A stretch of 34,470 bases of DNA from Craspedostauros australis (taxonomy: Eukaryota): contig JALAGF010002610.1 of assembly GCA_030167865.1 (NCBI GenBank), forward strand, positions 1 through 34,470. Reading direction: 5' to 3'. The position numbers and the translations under genes are program-made. The notes beneath the pieces were generated by a model that saw only the letters and a program-made list of their open reading frames with translations, made no database searches and was not told where the DNA came from. Position 1 is the first letter of the stretch; the number at the start of each line of letters is the position of its first letter. Below are positions 376-29,837 of this stretch, piece after piece.

Positions 376-1746
376 CTACAGTGAGCATGCGTAGTCGGCA
401 ATGCATTCTCCCGCATCGATGGCAACGCCGCTTAAGTAACACGCGAATTCACCGATGCAGGCTTCTTCCCCAACGCTACCTGCATTGAGAAAGCAAGCAG
501 AGCCACCGACGCAAGACTTGTTGCTGATGTCTCTCGCGTTGTAAGCGCAGGCGAGCACCCCCATGCAAGAATTTTCGGCAATATCTCCATCGTTCCGATA
601 GCAAGCTTCCTCACCAGAGCATGAACACTTGGCAATGGCACCGTATTGAGAAAAGCAAGCTCTTTTGCCGGAACAAGCGGAATCGTCGATCGTCCCGTGA
701 TTGGAGTAACACGAGGAAAATCCGATGCACGAGTTTGCTCCCACAGTCCCTTCATTCACGGCACATGAACCATCGTCAGCGCATGATCCTTCTCCAATGC
801 TTGCGACATTGCCAGCGCATGCCAGGTCGCCGAAGCATGCATTGTTAGACACACTGCCAGAATTGAAAAAGCACGCATATTCACCGTTGCAGGATCCTTC
901 ACCGAGATCACCAGTATTGAAACGGCATGCAGCGTCGCCGTTGCACGACGATTCGGGAACTACCGCATCGATACCATAGCATGCTTTTTCGCCGTTGCAA
1001 GATTGGGAAGCGATCTTGATGGTCGCTGTCGAGGCAGAGTCGAAGTAGCAGGCACCATCACCGTTGCAAGAGTTTGGACACACCGTGATATTGGAGTCGC
1101 CAACCCAGCTGCAGGCAGGATTCTCGGCACCTTCTGGTGTTTCGCAGCAGGTCGCGTTGGCAGCGGCGCAGCTGGCGATGACTTCGTCTGAGGTTCCGTT
1201 GAAGCACAGTCCAACGTCGTTCACGTGGTCAGATCGCGATTGCTTCGATTCCTTGGATGCCTTGAGCTGGTGTCCATCAGATTCGTTGGGCTTGTCGGTC
1301 TTCTGATCGAGATATGCGAACAACGACTTTCTTGGGGAGCTTTCGTCTGTCGCACCCGGCACACGTGCGGTTCCTCGCAGACGTCCTTGGTCGACGAAGT
1401 GGTTGTTGTTGGGAGTGGAGATGGAACGTGGGCGTCGGTTGGCGTTTCGTGCGGGACTTTGGTCCCCAGAAGCAATGCCATCGCTGTCGGTCCAGGGCTT
1501 GCGAGCAAGGATCAAGTGCAGCTTGTCCAGGGCTTGCTTTTGTGTATTCAAGGCAAGGTTTTTGTTCGTAGTGACATCTTTTCGGCGGCTCAGTGCGAAA
1601 TGCATCTTCTGGATGAGCACGCTGTGGGTATCGGCGATGATATCCATCTTGGCCGCCGTGTCCGCCTCGGATGATGCGTTGGCACTGCCAAGGATGAGGC
1701 TCTGTGTGATGGCGAGAGCGAGGGCTTCTTTCTTCGTGAATGGCAT
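376..1746 (-). CDS. Secreted Cys-rich repeat protein (paralog A), 13 x CxGxxAC-type repeats with mostly 18-aa period
   Basis: 456-aa ORF. Signal-peptide-like N-terminus (MPFTKKEALALAITQSLILGSANA), an RLRG motif, then repeats such as SCNGEYACFFNSGSVSNN / ACFGDLACAGNVASIGEG running to the stop. Collinear with the 2922..4259 ORF. Confidence 0.88.
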   Translation of the reverse strand: MPFTKKEALALAITQSLILGSANASSEADTAAKMDIIADTHSVLIQKMHFALSRRKDVTTNKNLALNTQKQALDKLHLILARKPWTDSDGIASGDQSPARNANRRPRSISTPNNNHFVDQGRLRGTARVPGATDESSPRKSLFAYLDQKTDKPNESDGHQLKASKESKQSRSDHVNDVGLCFNGTSDEVIASCAAANATCCETPEGAENPACSWVGDSNITVCPNSCNGDGACYFDSASTATIKIASQSCNGEKACYGIDAVVPESSCNGDAACRFNTGDLGEGSCNGEYACFFNSGSVSNNACFGDLACAGNVASIGEGSCADDGSCAVNEGTVGANSCIGFSSCYSNHGTIDDSACSGKRACFSQYGAIAKCSCSGEEACYRNDGDIAENSCMGVLACAYNARDISNKSCVGGSACFLNAGSVGEEACIGEFACYLSGVAIDAGECIADYACSL

Positions 1747-2921
1747 GTTGTAGAATAGTTGTTATTGGAGCGGTTGTTGTATTTGGATGAATCGATGTGG
1801 TGGTGGTATTCCTATTCTAATATTATAGAATATTATAATAACTTGTACCGATGCCTTGGTTTCGGTGTGAAGGACTGTCTGGAGATTGTGCTGAGTTGCG
1901 ATTTATGGGACAGGGGATTTACCAAAGGAAAGCGACCAAGGTGCGTGGGTGCTGTCGTTTTGTGAGGGATGAGCTGGTGCGTCGGGTCGCAGCGATGCTG
2001 TTTTGCTTGCGGGTGCTGGTTGACGCTGAGGAAAGTTCATCGCGCCGCCAGGAGCCTTTCACGGATCACAGATACTCTGCAACTGCACGAAGAACAACAA
2101 CGTGTCAGTAGCGCACCACCATGGAAGAGAATTGTGCGAGTGGAACAATGGATGTCAAGTACAATTCTGAATTTTCGTTGAGTGGATTTCTGACGGGTAC
2201 CATCGTGAAGAGATGGGATTAGAGCAGCTCACTGGGTGACCCCTGCAGATGCAGCGAGTTCAATGGTGTCAGGGTCAAATCAAACATTTGTGCTGGTGTG
2301 CTTTCGGCTTGCGAAACGAGAAGGATCGCACATTGTTTGTTGTGCACAGATACGCTGTTGTGAGGCACTCGAGACGCATTTGGCGGCCTGTTGCCTGCAT
2401 CTTTCTCACGTGTTGTCAGTCCCTTGGTTGAGTCAAGTGCGTCTCCCTCGGGGTGGTTTGACGAATGTCAGCTCTTCATGGGTTTAGCATACCATGGCGA
2501 TGCGTCTGTGCGCATTCATCGCAAACATCTTGCTCGTGCCTTTGGGTGGAATCGCAAACTGCGAACTCTGCATCGCCGCATCACGCCCTTTCGCTTTTTC
2601 ATTCAGTCCATCGGCGATTGGATTCAGCGACACCAACAAGAAAAACCCAATCCGCGCGCGTCACATTAATAGAGTCCACAACGGACCCACCATGACGCAA
2701 GCATCCAGCCGTTTGCAAACGAGAACAAGTCAGGCATTCGGTAAGTGAACGAATAGGCGCAGAACGACGGTCCCACCAAACAATGCGCTGGCATTTCGGA
2801 AGGTTCCAATCAATCTGTAGTCGTACGGTACGTGTACTACTTAATGTGATGCTTCGGCAACACTTGAGGATTGCGATACGATGTGCTCTTTGGAACGACC
2901 AACCCGACCGTACCTACCGCA

Positions 2922-4259
2922 CTATGTGCACGAGCTGTTGCCCACGCATTCTCCTGTTGCGATAGTTGCGTTGTTGCCGCTGCATGCGGATTGGCCGATG
3001 CAGGCTTCTGCTCCAATAGTTCCAACGTTGGCAAGGCACGCCTCGTCGCCAACGCAAGACCTGCTGCTGATGTCACCCTCATTGGACCCGCAGGCAAGTT
3101 CACCAATGCAAGAAGCCTTGGCAATGCCGCCAGTGTTCCGAGTGCAAGCTTCTTCTCCGGAGCAAGAGAAGTCATCGATCGTGCCTTCGTTGAAGTAGCA
3201 AGAGGAAGGCCCGATGCAAGCGTTCTTACCAATGACGTCCTCATTCTGGAGACAAGACCGGTCGCCGCCGCATGATCCTTTCCCGACGTTGGCGGAATTG
3301 CCAAAGCACGCGGCCTCACCGCCGCACGCGTCGCGAGACACGTCGCCAGCGTTGCGATAGCACGCGGCATCGCCGTTGCAGGCATTGTCACCGACGCCGC
3401 CAGTGTTGAGAAAGCATGCAACTTGACCGTTGCAAGAAGATCGAGGAATCGCCATCTCGATGCCGAAGCAGGAAGCCTCGCCATTGCAAGAGGAAGAGGC
3501 AACCTGGATGGTTGTCGTTGTGCTGGGGTTGAAGTAGCAGGCACGGTCACCGTTGCAAGAGTTTGGACAAACAGTGACGTTTCGACCATCGCCCCAGATG
3601 CAGGCAGGTACCTGGGAGTCTTGCGATGGCGCGCAGCAGGTTGCATTGGCAGCAGCGCAGCTGGCGATGACATCATCGGCCGTTCCGGTGAAGCATGATT
3701 CGAACTCGTCGACGTCATCGAAGGACTTGAAGGATTTGGAAGACTTGGATGTCTTTGACGACTTGAGCTGGCGCGCTTCAGATCCGCTCGTCTTGGCTGT
3801 CTTCTGCCGGGCAGGTGCAACCAATGGCTCTCGTGGTGTGCCTTCAGCCATCGCCTCAGCTTCAACTACGCCCGTGCTTCCTCGCAAGCGTCCCTGGTCA
3901 ACGTACTGCCTCTGGTCGGCGTTGGCCACGGCATGAGGGCGACGGTTGGCTTTCGATGTGCTGGTTCGGTCCTCAGCGATAGCATCACCCCTCCCTGCCC
4001 AGGGCTGATCGGTGAAGAATGAGTCCAAGTTTTCCAGGGCTTGCTTCTTGATATCTGCGATTGCTACATGCTGCTTGTTCGTGGCGATGTCTCTGCCGTG
4101 CTCAGCTGCGAGCTTCGTGTTGTGAACGCGAGTGCGATGAAGATCGGCGAGACCATGGGGGTTGCGTGTGATCTCTGCCTCCAGAAGCGCATGAGCGCGT
4201 CCATGGATGAGGCTCTGTCCGATGGCGAGAGCAAGGACGTCCTTCTTCATGAATGGCAT
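2922..4259 (-). CDS. Secreted Cys-rich repeat protein (paralog B), 12 repeats, with RQL-KSSKTSKSSKSFK lysine cluster
   Basis: Start moved to the ATG at 4259 (MPFMKKDVLALAIGQSLIHG) because it aligns with paralog A's start (MPFTKKEALALAITQSL); 445 aa. Shared blocks: VDQGRLRG, CFxGTxDxVIASCAAANATCC, VCPNSCNGD. Confidence 0.88.
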   Translation of the reverse strand: MPFMKKDVLALAIGQSLIHGRAHALLEAEITRNPHGLADLHRTRVHNTKLAAEHGRDIATNKQHVAIADIKKQALENLDSFFTDQPWAGRGDAIAEDRTSTSKANRRPHAVANADQRQYVDQGRLRGSTGVVEAEAMAEGTPREPLVAPARQKTAKTSGSEARQLKSSKTSKSSKSFKSFDDVDEFESCFTGTADDVIASCAAANATCCAPSQDSQVPACIWGDGRNVTVCPNSCNGDRACYFNPSTTTTIQVASSSCNGEASCFGIEMAIPRSSCNGQVACFLNTGGVGDNACNGDAACYRNAGDVSRDACGGEAACFGNSANVGKGSCGGDRSCLQNEDVIGKNACIGPSSCYFNEGTIDDFSCSGEEACTRNTGGIAKASCIGELACGSNEGDISSRSCVGDEACLANVGTIGAEACIGQSACSGNNATIATGECVGNSSCT

Positions 4260-5395: not shown

Positions 5396-6259
5396 ATGAA
5401 GTTCAGCTCACCATTCGCTCTCTCGGCCCTCGCCTCTTCGGCCATCATGGCCCCGACCATGACATCTGCTTGGTCCACGGGCGGCCGCTTCTTCCCACAA
5501 GGCTCGTTGATCCTCAACTCACCAGCAGCCCGCCTCCTGTTCGATGAGGAGCTCGGCTCGATCTCGCCATTCCATGGCCGCCGTCGTCGCCGCCGCTCCT
5601 GGGAATCGTCCCCAGGCCAAGCGTTCTACCGCACCTCCCCTCGCTACGAGATTGTGGACAACGACGAGCTCTTCAAGCTTGCCGTGGACGTCCCGGGCAT
5701 CAAGATGGAGGACATCAACGTGAGCTTGGAAGACCATATCCTCACCGTCAGCGGAAGCCGCGAATCATCCAACGAGAACAGCCGCTGCACATCGCGCTTC
5801 AGCCAGAGCTTCTCGTTGGACGCAACCGTCGATGTGGAAAAGTTCAGCGCCAACTTGGAGAACGGCGTTCTGGTCGTGACGGCGCCGAAGGATCTGAAGC
5901 GAATCGAAGACAACATCCGCAAGATTCCAATCACGGGCGTTTCAGCATCGGTCGCGGCTCCGGAAGAAGTCGTCATGGCAACGTCCAGCGAGGATGCGCC
6001 CGTGGAAGTGACAATCGAACCACAAGAAACCGACAAAGCACCTCCCGCCGAGGTGGTGTCCAAGGATGGAGCAGACGAAGTGAAAGATGCTGGCACAGAT
6101 TCTGAGACGGAATCTGATGAGGTGGTCGACCTTGATGAGCCAGCTGAAAAGGAATCGAAGGAGGACAAGAAAGACGACAAGACGGAGGACAAGAAGGACG
6201 ACAAGAAGGAGGACAAGGACGACGACAAGGAGGACAAGAAGGACGACGCAAAAGAGTAG
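5396..6259 (+). CDS. Small heat shock protein (HSP20/alpha-crystallin domain) with N-terminal presequence and acidic tail
   Basis: ACD motifs AVDVPGIKMEDINVSLEDHILTVSGSR, FSQSFSL and ANLENGVLVVTAPK, plus the IxI motif RKIPI. Hydrophobic N-terminus; CA-rich 5' UTR before the ATG. Confidence 0.93.
   Translation: MKFSSPFALSALASSAIMAPTMTSAWSTGGRFFPQGSLILNSPAARLLFDEELGSISPFHGRRRRRRSWESSPGQAFYRTSPRYEIVDNDELFKLAVDVPGIKMEDINVSLEDHILTVSGSRESSNENSRCTSRFSQSFSLDATVDVEKFSANLENGVLVVTAPKDLKRIEDNIRKIPITGVSASVAAPEEVVMATSSEDAPVEVTIEPQETDKAPPAEVVSKDGADEVKDAGTDSETESDEVVDLDEPAEKESKEDKKDDKTEDKKDDKKEDKDDDKEDKKDDAKE
6161..6256 (+). repeat. Coding 21-24 bp repeat (EDKKDDKx) in the HSP20 tail
   Basis: Four gaggacaagaaRgacgacaag-like units. 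Confidence 0.8.
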
Positions 6260-13396: not shown

Positions 13397-14982
13397 AGGA
13401 CAAAAATGAAGTTGGGAGGCTCTTACAGTAGTCTCTATTGCCCAACTTTAGCACATATTATATCATTCACATTTAGTGCAGCATCCAGCAAACTTGCAGC
13501 CAAGTCATTTTAATGCAGAGCGCAATTATGGACACGATCACGGCAGAGTAGCTCGTACTCCATTGAAGATTGCGTTGTGGATGTGCCTGGGGCAACAAGC
13601 GAAGGGTCGGTTGAACGATCGCGAAGCCAAGCCAAGGAAAGTAATGTACCATACAACCGGCACAAGTATAGTACGACTATGAGAGAAACGTTCCCAAACG
13701 TCCTCTCTCGCCAGAGTGCTTGGTTGAAGTTCGCGTCTATTGTACATGTACCATACCATACTGCCATTGCTCCGTTCCACTCGATTCTATTGAATTCTTG
13801 AGATCAACCTCGATTTGTCTGCTTTCTTGGTTTTCTGCCTGCCCAACTGCTTCTCTGCCTTCATTGAATCAACCCGCTAACAGAACTGAAACAGATGTGG
13901 ACCGGAGGCGCGCAAGTCAGGAGTGTGTATCATCATTGTACCATACTCGTTGGTGCGCGCCCCGACTACGGTGACGAGGCGTGCTTCCACCCACTCGGTA
14001 CAAATAGTTCCTTTGAGCTGTTTGATGCCAAACGAATTGATCCTTGCATGTCCTGTTGTCTGCACTTTTGACTTTTGGTAGAAGAATGAGACGGGTGTCT
14101 GGCATTCTGTTTTTTCAAGGGTCTTTGAGGTCAGCGAAATCGCGTTTCGGCATACGATTCACACCTTGTGATGTTTCCTTGATCCGCGTTCGCCGGTCTT
14201 CTTGGGCTCGAGTACAAATCAACATCGCCGGTGACGTTCACGTCCGTCGCATATTTCTCTTCTTGGCCCAAACTGACCAACCAAGACCATGCCGCAGCGT
14301 CTAAGTATTGCCATTCAGAGCGTGCGGGACTCCTCAAGAGGCTGTTGAAGATGCTTCCACGGCGCTGACCACGAGACTGTGTTTCGATTTCCAACAGGGC
14401 GGACAACCGTAGTCTTACGGGCATTCTGTCAACACCCACCGCCCTCACCAGCCACCAGGCCCAACAGATGAGGGACAATGGATTCAGCAACCCAGGAGGA
14501 AAGCAATCACGAGAATCTCAGTCATTCTTGATTGGTCATCGATTGCTCGGCCAATGGTCTCCATGTTTTGTGTCGACCAGGATCGACGTTGTTGCTTCAC
14601 TCTGCGATCTATTTTCGCGCCAAACGACCACACACAGACGGGTGCAGATCTGCGGCATCTGCAGACTATTGATGCGCACGATCGTTGCCGTCCCAAATGC
14701 TGCAGCATGTTGCCTTGTGCATGGTGACTTGCAAGTAACCGATCCTCTCACACCTTCATTGGCAGTTCACTTTCCACAAGACATCTCTCATAAATTTCAC
14801 AAATTCACAACTCATCCTCAAAGGCATCTATTCATCGTTACCACACACATTCAATATCTTCATTCATCCACCAGCACAAGTGATCCACGATATCATACGA
14901 TACAACATCAATAGCAACAGCAACAGCAACAACACAAGTAAACCAACTTAACTTAACTTCACAAGCCCACACTAAAACAATC

Positions 14983-15882
14983 ATGATGCACAGAATCCCA
15001 TCCTCGCTCATCACCACGGCTCTCGCCTTGGCCGCGTCTCTTCAACAGGCTTCCGCCTACTACGTTCCAAGCAGAATATTGCAAATGGACGCCCACAACC
15101 CAGTTGGCCAGCCAACGTATCCATTCACCGCAGAAAACACGAAGAAGTTCGTCGATCATCAATTCGCCAAATACTTCTCGGATTGCCAAGCATTCGTCGA
15201 CACCTTCGTTGCCACAGGCGATCCCACCGATGGCGAGATTCAGACCTCCGCCACCGACCTTCCAACAGCCTTCGAGTACTGCGATGGCAAGCCAGAATGC
15301 CTGACGACCTCCGAATCTCTCCTGGAGCTCTGCGAGCTGACGGTGGGCACCAAGGACCAGATCCATGGCAACATGACGATCCATCCAGGAGCACGCCCAC
15401 GCGATGACTTCAGCCACATCGCTGTGACCGGACAGCAGAGCGTGTGCCTCAACATTGGCCGCGATGTTGGCTTCGGGCCATTAACGCCTCTTTGCTTCGA
15501 ATTCGTCATCACCGAGATCCTTCACGCCAACGAGGATGCGGTGCATGGATTGCAGTCCAGTCTGTGGCACGGGTACTTCAACGTCCACCACTCGACGTGC
15601 CCTGACCTCGACGCCCCCATCCTTGACTGCAACAACAGATGCGTCGTCCCAGAGGGCGTCAACCCAAGCGACGCGAATCTGCCCAGCTACTGCCTCCCAA
15701 AGATCAAGAAGAACGAGACCGACGCGGGCAAGCAGCCAGTCGATCCATCCTCTGCGGATGATGGCGATAGCAACGATGATTCTGCTGCACCATCCCTTCT
15801 CACCAGCGCACGGTCGCTGTCCTGGGCAACCGCTCGCCTCGCCCTTCTTGGGGCGGGGCTGGCTGCGTGGAGTGCTTGCTAG
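14983..15882 (+). CDS. Secreted, probably GPI-anchored protein of unknown function
   Basis: 299 aa. Signal peptide (LITTALALAASLQQASA|YY), Cys-containing globular region, acidic linker, DDSAA (possible omega site) and hydrophobic C-terminus LALLGAGLAAWSAC. CA-rich 5' UTR. Confidence 0.8.
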   Translation: MMHRIPSSLITTALALAASLQQASAYYVPSRILQMDAHNPVGQPTYPFTAENTKKFVDHQFAKYFSDCQAFVDTFVATGDPTDGEIQTSATDLPTAFEYCDGKPECLTTSESLLELCELTVGTKDQIHGNMTIHPGARPRDDFSHIAVTGQQSVCLNIGRDVGFGPLTPLCFEFVITEILHANEDAVHGLQSSLWHGYFNVHHSTCPDLDAPILDCNNRCVVPEGVNPSDANLPSYCLPKIKKNETDAGKQPVDPSSADDGDSNDDSAAPSLLTSARSLSWATARLALLGAGLAAWSAC

Positions 15883-23612: not shown

Positions 23613-26600
23613 CTACTTCCCGGGCGTTATCGGTTCGTCTTCGAAGCTCTCGTTGGGATCCTCGTCGCTGTAGTAGCTCCGGCTGCCGCTGCGGTCGTCA
23701 TCGCTGTAGTAGCTTTGGCTCCCTTCTTCGCCGTCAACGTAGCTTCCTTCGCCACCCTCTTCGCCGTCAACATAGCTTCCTTCGGCTCCTTCTTCGTCTC
23801 CGCTGTAGTAGCTCTGGCTTCCCTCCTCGCCTTCCACATAGCTTCGACTGCCTTCCTCGCCGCTGTAATAGCTCTGGCTGCCTTCTTCGCCATCAACGTA
23901 GCTTCTGCTGCGGTCCTCGTCGCTGTAGTAGCTCTGACTGCCTTCTTCGCCATCAACATAGCTTCTGCTACGATCTTCATCGCTGTAGTAGCTTTGACTG
24001 CCTTCCTCGCCATCAACGTAGCTCCTGCTGCCGTCTTCGTCGCTGTAGTAGCTCTGACTTCCTTCTTCGCCGTCGACGTAGCTCCTGCTTCCGTCCTCGT
24101 CGCTGTAGTAACTGCGATCAGCATCTTCGTCGTCGTAGTCGCTGCGGCTTTCGTCCTCGAAGGATCCTTCCTCGATCGTGTCGCCGAACCCATCGTCTTC
24201 AAAGCCCATATCGTCACCGCCCAGCTCCTGTTCGTACTCGTCCTCATCTTCGAACTCGCCCTCCTCGTGGGGCGGCAAACTGGCCGCGGCGATGGCGGTG
24301 GCGCCGGCCATCGTATCCTCCGTCTGGTCCGTCATGCCCGACGTCATGGAGAATCCGGTGTCCGTCTGCATGGCCCCGGGTGCGCGCGTGGGACGGTTCT
24401 TGCTCTTGTGCACACTTGCCCGGACCCGCTTCTTCTGCTTGCGCTTGCTCATGGTCTGCAAGGTCGCCAGCAGCTCGTGCTCGCGACCGCGGAATTTCTC
24501 CATCATGCCGTCGATCTCATCGATCTCTTCGGGCATGGAGGTCCGGACGAACTCCTCCACCTGCTTGCGGTATTCGGCACGCTTCTCTTCATCGGCGGTG
24601 CGCAAGCTGGATTCGTCCGTGAACAGGGTCGAGCCGTTGTCGCTGCGGCTGCCGGATGACGAGCGGGATGCATCGTCATCGTCGCCGTCCTCGTCGTTCT
24701 TGCTCCCGCCCTCCGCGGAGTCATTCTCATCCTTGACCAGCGTGTTGTCATCAGCACCGTCCGTGTCGAACGTTTCGGCCGCCTCCAGGACGGCGTCCCA
24801 GTTATTGTCCTTGATCATGTTGTCCAGATCATCGTCCTTCTTTTTCAGTTTCGACGTCATGCTGCCTGACGAGCTGTCGGAATCGTATGTTGCGCTATCG
24901 CGCTTGGAGCTGGAACCTTCGGATGAATGGGAACCGGAGTGAGACGAATGGGAATGGTCATCGTCGTCGTCCTTACCGCCGCCGCCCTTCTTGCCGCGCT
25001 TGGTGGCGGATTCGTACGTGCTGTTGCCGGACGAGTAGGAATCATCCGAATCAGAATGAGATCCGGATCCGGAATGCGATGCCGACTCGGATCCTTCGCT
25101 CTTGCTTTCTCCGAATCCCGGTTCGTCGAAGAAGTCGTCGGCGTTGGTCGCTTTGCCGTTGGAGACGCCCCATCCGTTGGTGTTGTTGCCACCGAAAAAG
25201 TTGTCATCCCCATCATCCTCGTCTCCCTTTGGCCAGTTGGACGATTTGTCGTCACCGCCGAACGCATTATCGTTTTCGTTGACAGATCCTGCCTCGTGAG
25301 CTTCCTTGCTTTCTCCCAACACGGATGGCTCATCGAAGGCGTAATTGCCGAAATCGAGGTTGGAACCGTCATCGTCGTTGCTTGCGTTGTTGGCAATGTT
25401 GTCTTCGTCTCCGAAGAGATCGGCTTCATCGAAGCCCTTGGTGCTGCCCTTCTTGCGGCCAAAACCGAAACGATTCTTCGGATCACCGTCGTCGTTCTTG
25501 CCAAAGGCCCCGCTGCCGTTCTGATCCTTCTTCTTGCCTCCCGATTTGCCCGTCCCGTTAAGTTCGACCTCGGTATCTTTGTCTTTGCCTTTCATGCTGC
25601 GGCCGCTGCCACCAAATGCACCTGATTTCACATCCTCGTTGTCGGATGCGTCATCATCATCATCATCTTCGTCTTCATCTTCGTCATCATCGTCGTCGTC
25701 ATCATCATCCTCGTCGTCATCGTCATCATTTCCTCCTTTAGATCCCTCCTTTTTCTTCTTCTTCTTTTCCTTCTTCTTGTCGTGCTCTGTGGCGCAACGG
25801 CCAATGAAGGCACAGATCCCGCAAACGAAGAGACCGGCAGCAGTTGTGCCAGCGATCAACCCAACGTTGAGCTCCGCTCCGCCTTCCTCGGAGCTAGTTT
25901 GTGGATCGCCTGCCGGTGCCTGCGTCGGCATGCTGGACATTGTGGGCACGCCCGTTTCAGGATCCGGGGGCAGCACGGGGTACGTCTCAATCTCAATCTT
26001 CAGCAGCGTGAAGGGTTCCGTCTCCAACAGGCTCTCCTGCAATTCGCCCTGCATAATCAAGTCCTGCGTTCGGTTGGTCAGGATCTTGCTGACCTGAATT
26101 GCATTCTCCTCATCCAAATCCAATTGGAATTTGGCGTACGCTATTCTGCAAACCGAATTCGCTGCCGCGGACGACGGGCATTCCGTGTCCATGATTTGAT
26201 AGATGGATGCACTGTCAGCGATATACTGCACCTCCAGACGTCGGTCCTGTCGCCGTCCGAGTTGTTGACGATGATGATCGCCACCATCATGAGCATAACC
26301 ACGCAGATGCCGCTGTCGACGTCCACCATCGAGGGTTATGTTCCGCAGACTTTGGTCCACAAACAGCGAGTACGAATCATCGAGGACGCGTCTGATCAAG
26401 TTGCCTTCCTCCAAAGAGACACCCGGTGGACTGGAGAAGATGAATGCGTTGTAACCTTCGGCGATGCCGGGAGGGAAGGTTGGTGTTCCCGGAGCGAAAG
26501 TTACGGGCGGTTCTGTGATCACGGGCATCCGCGTTGGCTGCGCGGTGATGGTGGGGACAAGCGTAGGCGACGACGTGGAGATCAGTGCGACGGATATTTC

Positions 26601-28553
26601 AATGCAAAACTCATCGAGGAATTCACCCTGATCCGGAGTTGGATTTTGTCCTCGCTTGGTGCCAAAGATGTCGATCAATCCATTCACGAGGGCGTTGTCG
26701 ATGTAGTTCTGCTGCAATGGACCCAGCAAGTCCTCGAATGCGAATCCTTGAAAACTATCCCCCGTCCAAAAATTCAGCAGACCCACGTATTCGCTTCTGC
26801 TCAGCAGATTGTTGGCGTCGACGTCTTGAGCACCGATGAATCGCCAGCATTTCGCGGAATCCAGCGTGGGTGGCAACGTCGGCGGCGCCTGGGTGGGCGT
26901 GGTAGGTTGGGGCATGATCGTTGGTTCCATCGTCACTGGCATTTCCGACACCTGCAAAGCAATGGCCGTTTCGACACAAATCTGATCCAGAAATCTCTCC
27001 TGGGATGTTGTTGGGATCTGCCCGGGCCTGGCTCCTTCGATGCTGAGGAAACCAGCCGAATTCTTCAATCGATCGAAAAGCCGTTGCAGCTGTCCCGTCA
27101 ATTCGGCATAGGGCAAATCGTCAAACTGCTGGTCCCGCGTCAAGCGAAACAGGAAGCTCACGAACTCCGTTTCGTCGAGCAAGCTATCGGCAGACGAATC
27201 CGCCTGCGCCATTCGATTTCGGCACGTATCGGGATCGTACGTCGGTGGCAACGTCCCGGTGGGCATGTTGGCGGGCGAGTAGGTGACGGCAGGACCTCTC
27301 AACGCCTCCAAGGTATCGCAGCACAATTCGAACAACCTATCCTTCTGCCGCTGCGACGCGTTGGAGTTTGGTTTGGACCCTGCGACGTCGATCTGCGAAT
27401 CGGTCGTAGCGTATTCGTTGTAGACGACCTGCGCGGGTCCCGGCAAACTGTCAAACCCGTCGTAATCATCTTCGTTATCAAGACGCGTCGCAAATATGGC
27501 AAATTCCTTGCGATTCAAGAGGTTGTCGCGTTCGTTGCCGGGATCGCTGTCGCCGTTCGTGAGGGCGATGTCGCACTTGATCTGCGAGAAGTCGATATCG
27601 CAGCTGGGTCCGACGGGTGCGACGGTGGGCGGCGGGTTGTCCACGAGATCCTTCGTCGCGTCGCACAAGCCGATGAGGAAGTCGTTCTGTTCCGGCGTGC
27701 GCACGGACCCTGGTTTGGATCCCAGCACGTCGATGGCGTCCTTGTCGGCGTCGACGAACGCCTCAAAGTTGGATTGGAAGTACGGCGGCAGCGTCTCGAA
27801 CGAGTCCCAATCATTCTCGAATTCATTTTTGGTGTACTGATTGATGAAAATGACGTACTCTGGATCTCGGACGAGCAAGTTATCACGGACTTTGTCACCG
27901 CTGGTCAGCGCCCGCAAGCATGCAGACTCTGGCTGTGCATCCGCGCCTTGCAGTTGTCGTCGTCGTTCGTCATTGTTGCCATTGCTATTGTAAGTGTCGG
28001 GGCTATGGCGTGGTGCAACAGATGGAGAGTGAGTTGGGAAAGGACGCACGGACGGCTGACGCTGTATCGTTCGTGGCGCCTGCGAAAGAATGGTTGGCAC
28101 GACCGTCGGCGGTCTTGCGAAATTGGGAATCGACTGTGGCTGTTGGTTGTATTCATAGTAGTTGATGCCGCGGCTGCTTGGATAGTACTGTTGCGATTGC
28201 AAGGCGCCGTCTTCCAACAACGCCAACTGCAACGAAAGCGCATGACAGAACGATGGCACCGGCTGCTTTCCAACAGCAGGGTCCTCATTCCGGGCAACGT
28301 CGCTGAAGAGATTCCGCAGATGGATGGGAAGCTCCGAGAATGAGACGTCATTGTCGACGCCCTCTCTTCGAAGGAACTGCGCGTACTGATCTTGTGTGGG
28401 TCGCGGATGCTGGGCCATCCATTGCATGCACTTCACGTGCGTTGCGGATGTATCACGCGAGAATTGTGTGGGCACCTGCGTCGGCATGAGAGATGCTGCA
28501 TCCACAGCGGAGGCCAAACCAACCGTCGCCAGCAACGCCAATCCCTTTGTCAT
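23613..28553 (-). CDS. Large type I membrane protein (~1646 aa): EF-hand-like luminal repeats, PT linkers, RXL motifs, one TM, acidic cytosolic tail with SY/DE repeats
   Basis: Signal peptide from the ATG at 28553 (MTKGLALLATVGLASAVDA). Four full and one degenerate repeats of about 110 aa. TM GLIAGTTAAGLFVCGICAFIG (~25800-25870) is followed by a Lys run and then an Asp run. The frame is open upstream to 28943, but that part looks like UTR. Confidence 0.85.
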   Translation of the reverse strand: MTKGLALLATVGLASAVDAASLMPTQVPTQFSRDTSATHVKCMQWMAQHPRPTQDQYAQFLRREGVDNDVSFSELPIHLRNLFSDVARNEDPAVGKQPVPSFCHALSLQLALLEDGALQSQQYYPSSRGINYYEYNQQPQSIPNFARPPTVVPTILSQAPRTIQRQPSVRPFPTHSPSVAPRHSPDTYNSNGNNDERRRQLQGADAQPESACLRALTSGDKVRDNLLVRDPEYVIFINQYTKNEFENDWDSFETLPPYFQSNFEAFVDADKDAIDVLGSKPGSVRTPEQNDFLIGLCDATKDLVDNPPPTVAPVGPSCDIDFSQIKCDIALTNGDSDPGNERDNLLNRKEFAIFATRLDNEDDYDGFDSLPGPAQVVYNEYATTDSQIDVAGSKPNSNASQRQKDRLFELCCDTLEALRGPAVTYSPANMPTGTLPPTYDPDTCRNRMAQADSSADSLLDETEFVSFLFRLTRDQQFDDLPYAELTGQLQRLFDRLKNSAGFLSIEGARPGQIPTTSQERFLDQICVETAIALQVSEMPVTMEPTIMPQPTTPTQAPPTLPPTLDSAKCWRFIGAQDVDANNLLSRSEYVGLLNFWTGDSFQGFAFEDLLGPLQQNYIDNALVNGLIDIFGTKRGQNPTPDQGEFLDEFCIEISVALISTSSPTLVPTITAQPTRMPVITEPPVTFAPGTPTFPPGIAEGYNAFIFSSPPGVSLEEGNLIRRVLDDSYSLFVDQSLRNITLDGGRRQRHLRGYAHDGGDHHRQQLGRRQDRRLEVQYIADSASIYQIMDTECPSSAAANSVCRIAYAKFQLDLDEENAIQVSKILTNRTQDLIMQGELQESLLETEPFTLLKIEIETYPVLPPDPETGVPTMSSMPTQAPAGDPQTSSEEGGAELNVGLIAGTTAAGLFVCGICAFIGRCATEHDKKKEKKKKKKEGSKGGNDDDDDEDDDDDDDDDEDEDEDDDDDDASDNEDVKSGAFGGSGRSMKGKDKDTEVELNGTGKSGGKKKDQNGSGAFGKNDDGDPKNRFGFGRKKGSTKGFDEADLFGDEDNIANNASNDDDGSNLDFGNYAFDEPSVLGESKEAHEAGSVNENDNAFGGDDKSSNWPKGDEDDGDDNFFGGNNTNGWGVSNGKATNADDFFDEPGFGESKSEGSESASHSGSGSHSDSDDSYSSGNSTYESATKRGKKGGGGKDDDDDHSHSSHSGSHSSEGSSSKRDSATYDSDSSSGSMTSKLKKKDDDLDNMIKDNNWDAVLEAAETFDTDGADDNTLVKDENDSAEGGSKNDEDGDDDDASRSSSGSRSDNGSTLFTDESSLRTADEEKRAEYRKQVEEFVRTSMPEEIDEIDGMMEKFRGREHELLATLQTMSKRKQKKRVRASVHKSKNRPTRAPGAMQTDTGFSMTSGMTDQTEDTMAGATAIAAASLPPHEEGEFEDEDEYEQELGGDDMGFEDDGFGDTIEEGSFEDESRSDYDDEDADRSYYSDEDGSRSYVDGEEGSQSYYSDEDGSRSYVDGEEGSQSYYSDEDRSRSYVDGEEGSQSYYSDEDRSRSYVDGEEGSQSYYSGEEGSRSYVEGEEGSQSYYSGDEEGAEGSYVDGEEGGEGSYVDGEEGSQSYYSDDDRSGSRSYYSDEDPNESFEDEPITPGK
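23660..24115 (-). repeat. Coding 60-bp tandem repeat (SQSYYSDEDxSRSYVDGEEG), about 5 regular copies plus degenerate ones
   Basis: Lines 23821-24120 align at a 60-nt period (ccttcttcgc catcaacgta gcttctgctg cggtcctcgt cgctgtagta gctctgactg). Confidence 0.95.
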
Positions 28554-28747
28554 GGCGCGATGCAGAGGTTGACGTGGGCGCCGTGAAGGATGGCATTGGC
28601 AACCGCTGTCTGATGCTGGCGGCATGGGCCGCTCGTATTGGCCTTGTGGCTGTCGAGATCTCCTTCTCTTTTTCTTTCCCGGCTTGTTGGCTGGCAGGTC
28701 CGTCTGTGATGGTCGCGCTTGTGGGTGCGTTTGTTGTGGATAACGGC

Positions 28748-28783
28748 GATGATGATGGTGATGATGATGGTGATGATGATGAT
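28748..28783. repeat. (GAT/GGT)n trinucleotide repeat
   Basis: gatgatgatggtgatgatgatggtgatgatgatgat; it produces the His run in the over-extended ORF. Confidence 0.85.
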
Positions 28784-29837
28784 CCATGTGATGGGCGGTC
28801 AAACTGCATCCAATGGCAGTCCGAGTCCTCTCGATCTCCATCGTCAGGGTCTCCATCGTCTTCTGGTGTGATGGCAAATGTCCTGTGCACTGTTCTGACC
28901 CAACCCTGGTGTTGGAGTCCTTGCTGATGTCCCTTGCTTTCAAGTGCTTTGAAGTGCTTCTCTGGGATTCCTGTGGCCCGCCTCCTTCTCGAGTCCTTCC
29001 CTTCCTGGAAGGCTCCTGTTCGTATTCGCACGTAGTAGTAGTCGTGCAAAGTATTCTTCTCCCCTCTTAGTGGTTGGATGCACCAAATGCCCCTCTCTCG
29101 CCGACTTGTCCCTCGTTGGGTTTGCCCTTGTCTCTCTTCTTCCACCAACTCTCTCGTTGTCCACGATGTCGATGATGTCCACATGATGTCTTCCCATCCC
29201 TCGCTTTGCACGACCAACGCTCTTGATGGTCACAAAAACAATCCCGATTCTTCTTCTTCCACATCGTGTCATCCCAATCACGCAAAAACGAACGGCTCGA
29301 CGAACTCGGAACGAAAATTATGTCGCATGCGACTACCATTACTTATGACAGAGACCTATTGGACAGCAACCGATGGTCACAACACGACTGAGCGGCTTTT
29401 CACGCACGGCCGTTGGACATCCTTCGCGTTGTGTCCACGATCTTGGATTTCAGTTTGTCCACGATGACCACAAAGGAAGATAACCTGCATTCGAATGAGT
29501 CATTCATGATTCAGAAAAGAAACGACAAAATTGCCGAACCTGACCCACAAAATCGTCCATCCACTTTCTTCACTCGTGTCGCGGCACGATGCGAGGACGA
29601 GGATGAGTACGTACATGATCATGACCATGTTCATGTTGTGTGAAGGACGCTGGATCCGCAGCTGTCTTCCAAGGAATGCTTCGGAGTTCTCGAGTCTCCC
29701 ATCGACCGCCTCGCTCTGTACGTCATTCCATTTCATGGTGCGACCATCTCGGTGAAACTACAATTGATTACTTCTCGTTAACGCGCTCTGTTGGTGTCGT
29801 CAAATACCATCTGTGTGATTCGTTTGCTTCGAGGCAC

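What the first reader, a model, noticed from the sequence alone, without database searches (positions are those of the whole stretch)
3726..3773. RXL site followed by a 13-aa five-lysine KXXK cluster, fused to a Cys-solenoid domain
Seen: RQL|KSSKTSKSSKSFK (five Lys spaced every third residue, Ser/Thr-rich), after a signal peptide and an RLRG-containing pro-region, and just before an acidic patch and the Cys-repeat domain. Known: RXL is the processing motif of silaffin precursors, and 12-14-aa pentalysine clusters target silaffins to biosilica in Thalassiosira pseudonana. Silaffins are disordered. Inference: a structured disulfide rod carrying a silica-targeting tag could be an undescribed class of frustule- or adhesion-associated protein.
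Basis: partly seen in the sequence, partly recalled or inferred. Interest (0 to 1): 0.72.

Follow-up and report, generated by a model that had tools for sequence, protein, structure and literature searches.

The report
Lysine-tagged cysteine rod proteins in diatom
A diatom gene encodes a secreted, rod-shaped cysteine-repeat protein that carries the short lysine tag known to send proteins into the glass cell wall; both parts are known separately, but this genome has expanded their direct fusion into a family of about 28 genes.

Summary
The motif is real. An intronless minus-strand gene (4259→2922, 445 aa) encodes a likely signal peptide, a pro-region with GRLRG, the only RxL site (RQL), KSSKTSKSSKSFK, an acidic patch, an 8-Cys cap and eleven 18-residue Cys repeats (Pfam DUF7640). 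The 13-mer fits the published pentalysine pattern, and chance is excluded. AlphaFold gives a confident solenoid resembling left-handed β-helices, with a disordered tag.

The gene is one of 28 distinct paralogs examined: 26 keep RxL and 20 fit the pentalysine pattern. Lysine number ranges from 2 to 10, and the three closest paralogs have only three. Two Stauroneis constricta homologs keep a basic site and a lysine cluster but not the five-lysine pattern.

'Undescribed class' is overstated. Proteins with the same Cys motifs (TpSSP16, CcSSP23) are in centric-diatom silica proteomes, and silicanin-1 is a folded RXL disulfide protein. The direct tag-to-rod fusion and its expansion were not found in my literature searches.

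Best reading: a processed, silica-targeted frustule scaffold (about 55%). Localisation, cleavage and lysine modification are untested.

The parts
2922..4259 (-). Coding sequence, 445 aa, intronless, secreted DUF7640 pro-protein (P0001)
   Evidence: Pfam PF24646 E 2.6e-24; full-length alignment with paralogs
4188..4259 (-). Probable signal peptide, residues 1-24, ending A-H-A
   Evidence: sequence; KK[DE]xLAL..GVDA pattern conserved in the family and in S. constricta homologs; weak hydrophobic core; no predictor run
3774..4187 (-). Pro-region, residues 25-162, poorly conserved, no Cys
   Evidence: 44 of 133 aligned residues identical to the tandem paralog, against 48 of 76 for residues 189-264
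3879..3893 (-). GRLRG motif (residues 123-127); family form GRL[R/Q/G]; possible second processing site (inference)
   Evidence: G123 and R124 at least 90% conserved in alignment A1; GRL flagged in 27 of 28 core paralogs
3765..3773 (-). RQL, putative RXL cleavage site; with the next Lys it also reads as RxLx
   Evidence: only RxL in the protein; RxL in 26 of 28 core paralogs
3726..3764 (-). KSSKTSKSSKSFK, 13-aa five-lysine cluster, predicted disordered
   Evidence: pLDDT below 50; pattern
3696..3725 (-). Acidic patch, residues 179-188, net charge -5
3504..3695 (-). 8-Cys N-terminal cap (CFTGT...CC...W...VTVCP), residues 189-252, one helix
   Evidence: a search with residues 188-264 gave 43 matches in G000
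2925..3503 (-). Eleven 18-residue SCxGxxACxxNxGxI repeats (DUF7640), acidic, predicted solenoid
376..1746 (-). Tandem paralog P0002 (456 aa), same layout, about 50% identical
1234..1272 (-). Degenerate site and tag of the paralog: HQL then KASKESKQSR (no RxL, three Lys)

Best explanation
A secreted diatom cell-wall pro-protein built like a silaffin precursor but carrying a folded cargo. (1) The signal peptide takes it into the ER, where the 30 Cys pair up, probably one disulfide per 18-residue turn, giving a stiff acidic solenoid of about 11-12 turns (fold predicted; disulfides inferred). (2) The pro-region is removed at RQL by the still unidentified RXL protease (inferred from conservation and analogy). 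(3) The exposed KxxK cluster is modified on Lys and Ser as in silaffins (analogy). (4) It acts as a sorting and silica-binding tag that takes the rod into the silica deposition vesicle, so that the rod ends up in the frustule as scaffold or filler (inferred). The conserved unit is RxL followed by KxxK repeats in triplet register; the number five is one state of a tag that varies from 2 to 10 lysines.
For: Motif far beyond chance. Pentalysine pattern in 27 of 92 silica-extracted proteins against 1.5% of background; two KxxK within 10 residues can target silica to some extent. KS.KS, SKS.K and FKS.K, present in this tag, are named as enriched silicome motifs. Isolated lysine-rich regions took eGFP to the frustule, and a protein picked by its lysine cluster localised there. 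P0001 has 8 GxxACxxN and 1 IGxxSC, the motifs of a silicome cluster whose member TpSSP16-GFP sat at fultoportulae. DUF7640 occurs in Cyclotella cryptica, one of the species of that study. RxL kept in 26 of 28 paralogs across a divergent pro-region. The tag pattern hits G000 27 times against 9 for the reversed control; 19 of the 27 are in this family. Model pLDDT 92 with a disordered tag.
Against: No localisation, proteomic or modification data. The three nearest paralogs have three lysines, and one has lost the Arg. Only 2 of 150 outside homologs match the pentalysine pattern, so DUF7640 usually works without it, also in apparently bacterial proteins. Deleting two lysine-rich regions of CinW2 did not stop its frustule targeting. 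The tag's targeting role was shown in a centric diatom only, as far as the papers read show. If a site-1-type protease cuts after RQLK (RxLx consensus), four lysines remain. The sequence of TpSSP16 was not seen, so its identity with DUF7640 rests on motifs.
Confidence: 0.55

Rival explanations
1. Outer coat, mucilage or adhesive-trail protein. It is secreted to the surface and binds silica or polysaccharide from outside through the basic tag, while the solenoid is an adhesin- or lectin-like rod.
For: Cys-rich repeats occur in three C. australis trail or coat proteins, and CaFAP1 alternates PTS-rich and Cys-rich domains. G000 has long PTS-rich DUF7640 proteins. A Seminavis homolog is annotated as a VWFD protein. 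Adhesins UspA1 and YadA appear among lower structural matches, Z 11.2 and 8.9.
Against: [quoted passage not shown] P0001 has no PT repeats. The tag matches silicome-enriched motifs.
Confidence: 0.22
2. The RxL-KxxK stretch is a general maturation linker of secreted proteins in this genome. It presents the cleavage site or is trimmed off, its length drifts by slippage, and the rod works away from the wall, for example in defence or ligand binding.
For: Lysine number varies 2-10 even between close paralogs. The same layout (signal, pro-region, RTL, KxxK, acidic patch) precedes an unrelated domain in another G000 gene. Large, fast-diverging family.
Against: Every-third-residue spacing and Ser fill are kept in most members, which a plain linker does not need. 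The other tagged G000 proteins could equally be wall proteins; one is a low-complexity silaffin-like repeat protein.
Confidence: 0.15
3. Stage-specific wall protein, for example for auxospore, perizonium, resting cell or wall repair, silica-linked but absent from ordinary valves.
For: Many paralogs with different rod and tag lengths. Expression timing decides cingulin location.
Against: No stage-resolved expression data were available; pure inference.
Confidence: 0.08

Closest known systems
Cys-repeat soluble silicome proteins TpSSP16 and CcSSP23 (bioRxiv 10.1101/2021.09.18.460806)
   Same: C-terminal Cys repeats with IGxxSC and GxxACxxN; diatom silica-extracted; TpSSP16-GFP at fultoportulae.
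   Different: They have Ser/Pro/Thr-rich N-terminal regions. P0001 has none, and has RxL plus a lysine cluster directly before an 8-Cys cap. Their sequences were not seen.
Silaffins, cingulins and KXXK silaffin-like proteins
   Same: Signal peptide, RXL, clustered KxxK with Ser, pentalysine match.
   Different: They are largely disordered with at most one Cys. Here the cluster is 13 residues on a 257-residue folded domain with 30 Cys.
Silicanin-1 family (PMC5525289)
   Same: Signal peptide, RXL pro-domain, folded disulfide-bonded domain embedded in silica.
   Different: Sin1 is NQ-rich, globular and membrane-anchored. P0001 has no transmembrane segment, is a repeat solenoid and has a lysine tag.
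Pfam DUF7640 (PF24646)
   Same: Above cut-off, E 2.6e-24; shared with centric and pennate diatoms and with apparently bacterial proteins.
   Different: Function unknown; 0 papers name it. Most outside members lack the tag.
Left-handed beta-helix proteins (LpxD, GlmU, QdtC)
   Same: 18-residue coil; Z 14.9, rmsd 2.7-3.0 over 178-185 residues with LpxD.
   Different: About 10-12% identity; Foldseek found nothing at E 0.001 or better; NCBIfam score 15-18 against cut-offs above 200. Shape only, no sign of enzyme function.

Membership tests
Pentalysine-cluster silica-targeting tag | Five non-adjacent Lys in 12-14 aa, K..K..K.{1,2}K..K | tested here: met
   KSSKTSKSSKSFK; pattern
Pentalysine-cluster silica-targeting tag | Ser-rich spacers that can be phosphorylated | tested here: met
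   7 Ser/Thr in 13 residues; phosphorylation itself untested
Pentalysine-cluster silica-targeting tag | Sufficient to carry GFP into biosilica | not testable with these tools
   needs transformation
Pentalysine-cluster silica-targeting tag | Five-lysine form conserved in relatives | tested here: inconclusive
   20 of 28 paralogs; 0 of the 3 nearest; 0 of 2 S. constricta homologs
Silaffins | Signal peptide and RXL site | tested here: met
   RQL unique and conserved; signal peptide by inspection only
Silaffins | Largely disordered chain with at most one Cys | tested here: not met
   30 Cys; 239 of 280 modelled residues at pLDDT 90 or above
Silaffins | Polyamine or methyl lysines, phosphoserine, silica precipitation | not testable with these tools
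   needs mass spectrometry and assay
DUF7640 (PF24646) | Score above the gathering cut-off | tested here: met
   86.2 bits against 28.1
TpSSP16-type Cys-repeat silicome proteins | IGxxSC and GxxACxxN motifs in the C-terminal region | tested here: met
   8 GxxACxxN, 1 IGxxSC
TpSSP16-type Cys-repeat silicome proteins | Ser/Pro/Thr-rich N-terminal region | tested here: not met
   0 PT repeats in P0001; present in 7 of 46 G000 Cys-repeat ORFs
TpSSP16-type Cys-repeat silicome proteins | Sequence homology to TpSSP16 or CcSSP23 | not testable with these tools
   preprint supplements closed; journal version not held
Silicanins | NQ-rich domain and C-terminal transmembrane helix | tested here: not met
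   best 19-residue hydropathy 0.97 after residue 30; domain is DUF7640
Left-handed beta-helix acyltransferases | Sequence family membership | tested here: not met
   NCBIfam far below cut-off; no PDB sequence match at E 1
Thr-array beta-solenoid ice-binding proteins (feature recalled) | Regular TxT ladder | tested here: not met
   8 Thr in 181 repeat residues, 0 TxT

The most novel reading that the evidence does not exclude
The family is a combinatorial kit of rigid, silica-addressed rods. Rod length (8 to 25 repeat matches, roughly 4-12 nm at a recalled 4.8 Å per turn) and tag strength (2-10 lysines) vary independently, so each paralog would go to a different frustule element and set spacings there as a folded template. 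This would be a structured counterpart to the disordered silaffins and a genetic handle on pennate wall patterning.
Probability: 0.12. Interest if true: 0.8.

Novelty: new variant of a known kind. Interest (0 to 1): 0.48.

Why it matters
Most of the silica-protein work read here concerns centric diatoms and disordered proteins. A family of about 28 folded rods, each with a natural variant of the targeting tag, offers a ready series to ask how many lysines silica targeting needs and whether the rule holds outside Thalassiosira. The Arg-to-His paralog next door is a natural uncleavable control for the unidentified RXL protease. It would also give DUF7640 a first cellular role.

Tried and rejected
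Homotrimer prediction of the Cys domain, tried because left-handed beta-helices often trimerise (recalled): no verdict. Expression: no RNA holder listed; the one run, only guessed to be RNA, has two contigs with no differing letters over 2816-3148 and 3122-3460 and none over the tag; not used as evidence. Word-indexed homolog searches were shallow: 3 hits, 5 hits and 0 hits. No PDB sequence relative and no significant Foldseek match; this does not show the fold is new. ESM Atlas gave one DUF7640 cluster at 0.88, 90% eukaryote, commonest Bacillariophyta; a lead only. Earlier scan notes: nothing in three look-ups. Three key papers were not held: Poulsen 2013 JBC, the CaFAP1 paper and the Plant Journal version of the silicome study. 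Chance origin rejected. Ice-binding rejected for lack of a Thr ladder. Acyltransferase rejected. The cap-domain regex was too narrow, so its cap counts were not used. Deep branches of the tree have long-branch warnings; only the starred local clade was used.

Full report
Observation. Window 3726-3773 on the minus strand translates to RQLKSSKTSKSSKSFK. It lies in a stop-free 445-aa ORF, ATG 4259 to stop 2922 (P0001). The order is: probable signal peptide (1-24), Cys-free pro-region with GRLRG, RQL (163-165), five lysines at every third position (166-178), an acidic patch (net -5), an 8-Cys cap and eleven 18-residue repeats in strict 6/12 Cys spacing. The repeats are Pfam DUF7640, E 2.6e-24. The predicted mature chain has pI 4.2 and no transmembrane segment. 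Neighbours are ordinary eukaryotic genes: HSP20, UDP-glucose:glycoprotein glucosyltransferase, apyrase and an alpha/beta hydrolase. The host is taken to be a diatom from its relatives; it was not identified further.

Chance. RxL alone is uninformative (60% of shuffles). The pentalysine pattern arose in 6e-5 of 200,000 shuffles, and RxL plus the pattern in none. It is the only match in six frames of the window. It is absent from 46 of 46 non-family ORFs in flanking DNA, with eight loci found by the tag itself left out. A tighter DNA pattern (RxLK[ST]xK[ST]xK) hit G000 27 times against 9 for the reversed control, and 19 of the 27 hits are in contigs of this family.

Family. DUF7640 has 173 matches in G000, a lower bound, and the cap region has 43. 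From the loci fetched, 46 distinct Cys-repeat ORFs were recovered. Of these, 28 form a core group with the cap and an RxL-type site before a lysine cluster; the other 18 are truncated, lack the recognised cap, have PTS-rich linkers or are divergent. In the core group 26 of 28 have RxL (22 RQL), one has HQL and one RKM. Twenty of 28 match the pentalysine pattern, and lysine counts run from 2 to 10. Some copies may be alleles: four pairs are over 90% identical in the first 150 residues of the Cys domain. The window gene is sister (support 96/93) to three paralogs with only three lysines, one of which is the tandem copy at 376-1746 that has also lost the Arg. What is conserved is the site plus KxxK register, not the number five.

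Outside this genome. A full search found 331 relatives and listed 150. Two Stauroneis constricta proteins share the signal-peptide pattern, a basic site, a lysine/serine cluster and the cap (P0012, P0019); P0019 has RRL, P0012 has RRA, and neither fits the five-lysine pattern. DUF7640 also occurs in Seminavis robusta, Cyclotella cryptica and Stephanocyclus meneghinianus and in proteins that look bacterial. Of 150 non-G000 homologs screened, 2 match the pentalysine pattern; one is a plain lysine-rich stretch, and the other (P0072) has RHL, KSSKAGK repeats, PT repeats, FG-GAP repeats and DUF7640. Many of the 150 are fragments. In G000 the same layout of site, tag and acidic patch also precedes an unrelated domain with no Pfam match, so the tag is portable.

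Structure. AlphaFold2 on residues 166-445 with a 50-sequence alignment gave mean pLDDT 92 and pTM 0.85, with the first 21 residues disordered. The best structural matches are left-handed beta-helices: LpxD at Z 14.9, rmsd 2.7-3.0 over 178-185 residues, about 10-12% identity. Repeat proteins score middling Z easily, so this shows shape only. One disulfide per turn is inferred from the Cys spacing, not shown.

Literature. From bioRxiv 10.1101/2021.09.18.460806 (passages; Discussion; supplements closed): the pentalysine pattern is in 27 of 92 silica-extracted proteins against 1.5% of background, and a cluster of proteins with IGxxSC and GxxACxxN repeats includes TpSSP16, whose GFP fusion sat at fultoportulae. 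P0001 has 8 GxxACxxN and 1 IGxxSC. From PMC9650480 (passages; Discussion): isolated lysine-rich regions target eGFP to the frustule, yet deleting two of them from CinW2 did not abolish targeting. From PMC5501833 (passages): KXXK proteins with RXL and pentalysine clusters are a known screen class. From PMC4557024 (passages): RXL processing and KXXK modification. From PMC5525289 (passages): silicanin-1 is a folded RXL protein with all 18 Cys in disulfides, and the protease is unknown. From PMC13082318 (passages): site-1-type proteases cut RxxL/RxLx, so a cut after RQLK would leave four lysines; applying this to diatoms is my inference. From bioRxiv 10.1101/2023.03.06.531300 (passages; Table S6 not seen): trail proteins have other Cys repeats. 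PMC4220933 (passages) added only a lysine-rich pennate wall protein. The original pentalysine paper was not held and is known only through these citations. No paper names DUF7640, and searches showed no description of the direct tag-to-rod fusion; most subscription journals are not covered.

Mechanism. Most likely (0.55) the protein is imported into the ER, folded into an acidic disulfide solenoid, cut at RQL, modified on the exposed tag and sorted into the silica deposition vesicle, ending in the frustule. Shown here: the sequence layout, its conservation and the predicted fold. Inferred: cleavage, modification, targeting and role. Rivals are an outer coat or trail protein (0.22), a general maturation linker with no silica role (0.15) and a stage-specific wall protein (0.08).

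Verdict. The protein works like a silaffin-tagged wall protein but is not a silaffin, and it resembles TpSSP16 in its repeats but lacks the Ser/Pro/Thr region. It is a new variant of a known kind: two known parts fused directly and expanded into a large family. Interest 0.48.

Noticed in passing
L078:990-2562 (G000:C318); same translations in L085, L086, L093: Intron-containing secreted gene with signal peptide, pro-region, RTL, KTSKSSKASK, acidic patch and a domain with no Pfam or Atlas hit; four contigs give the same reading frames over about 2 kb.
   Followed up: partly
L102 (G000:C6034): Secreted low-complexity protein: RVL, KSDKSDK, then many MTKMPKM repeats; silaffin-like candidate.
   Followed up: no
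L080 (G000:C1309) and L098 (G000:C4599): Two more secreted proteins with RxL followed by KxxK clusters; L080 has several RxL sites.
   Followed up: no
L065 (G000:C2446) and L067 (G000:C1450): Mucin-like open frames of over 2,100 aa: long PTS repeats followed by the same cap and Cys repeats.
   Followed up: partly
L071 (G000:C3495) and L075 (G000:C4038): DUF7640-type ORFs with a C-terminal hydrophobic segment, possible membrane-anchored members.
   Followed up: no
window 23613-29066 (-): 1,817-aa frame with PT-rich stretches, one likely transmembrane segment and a long acidic tail ending in Tyr/Ser/Asp/Glu repeats; only a weak Pfam hit below cut-off.
   Followed up: no
window 14884-15882 (+): Cys-containing ORF with a likely signal peptide and hydrophobic C-terminus (possible GPI anchor); no Pfam family.
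   Followed up: no
window 5396-6259 (+): HSP20 with a signal-peptide-like N-terminus and a long Asp/Lys tail; possibly plastid- or ER-targeted.
   Followed up: no
P0003, P0004, P0005, P0009: Apparently bacterial secreted proteins carry the same 18-residue Cys repeat; direction of any transfer not tested.
   Followed up: no
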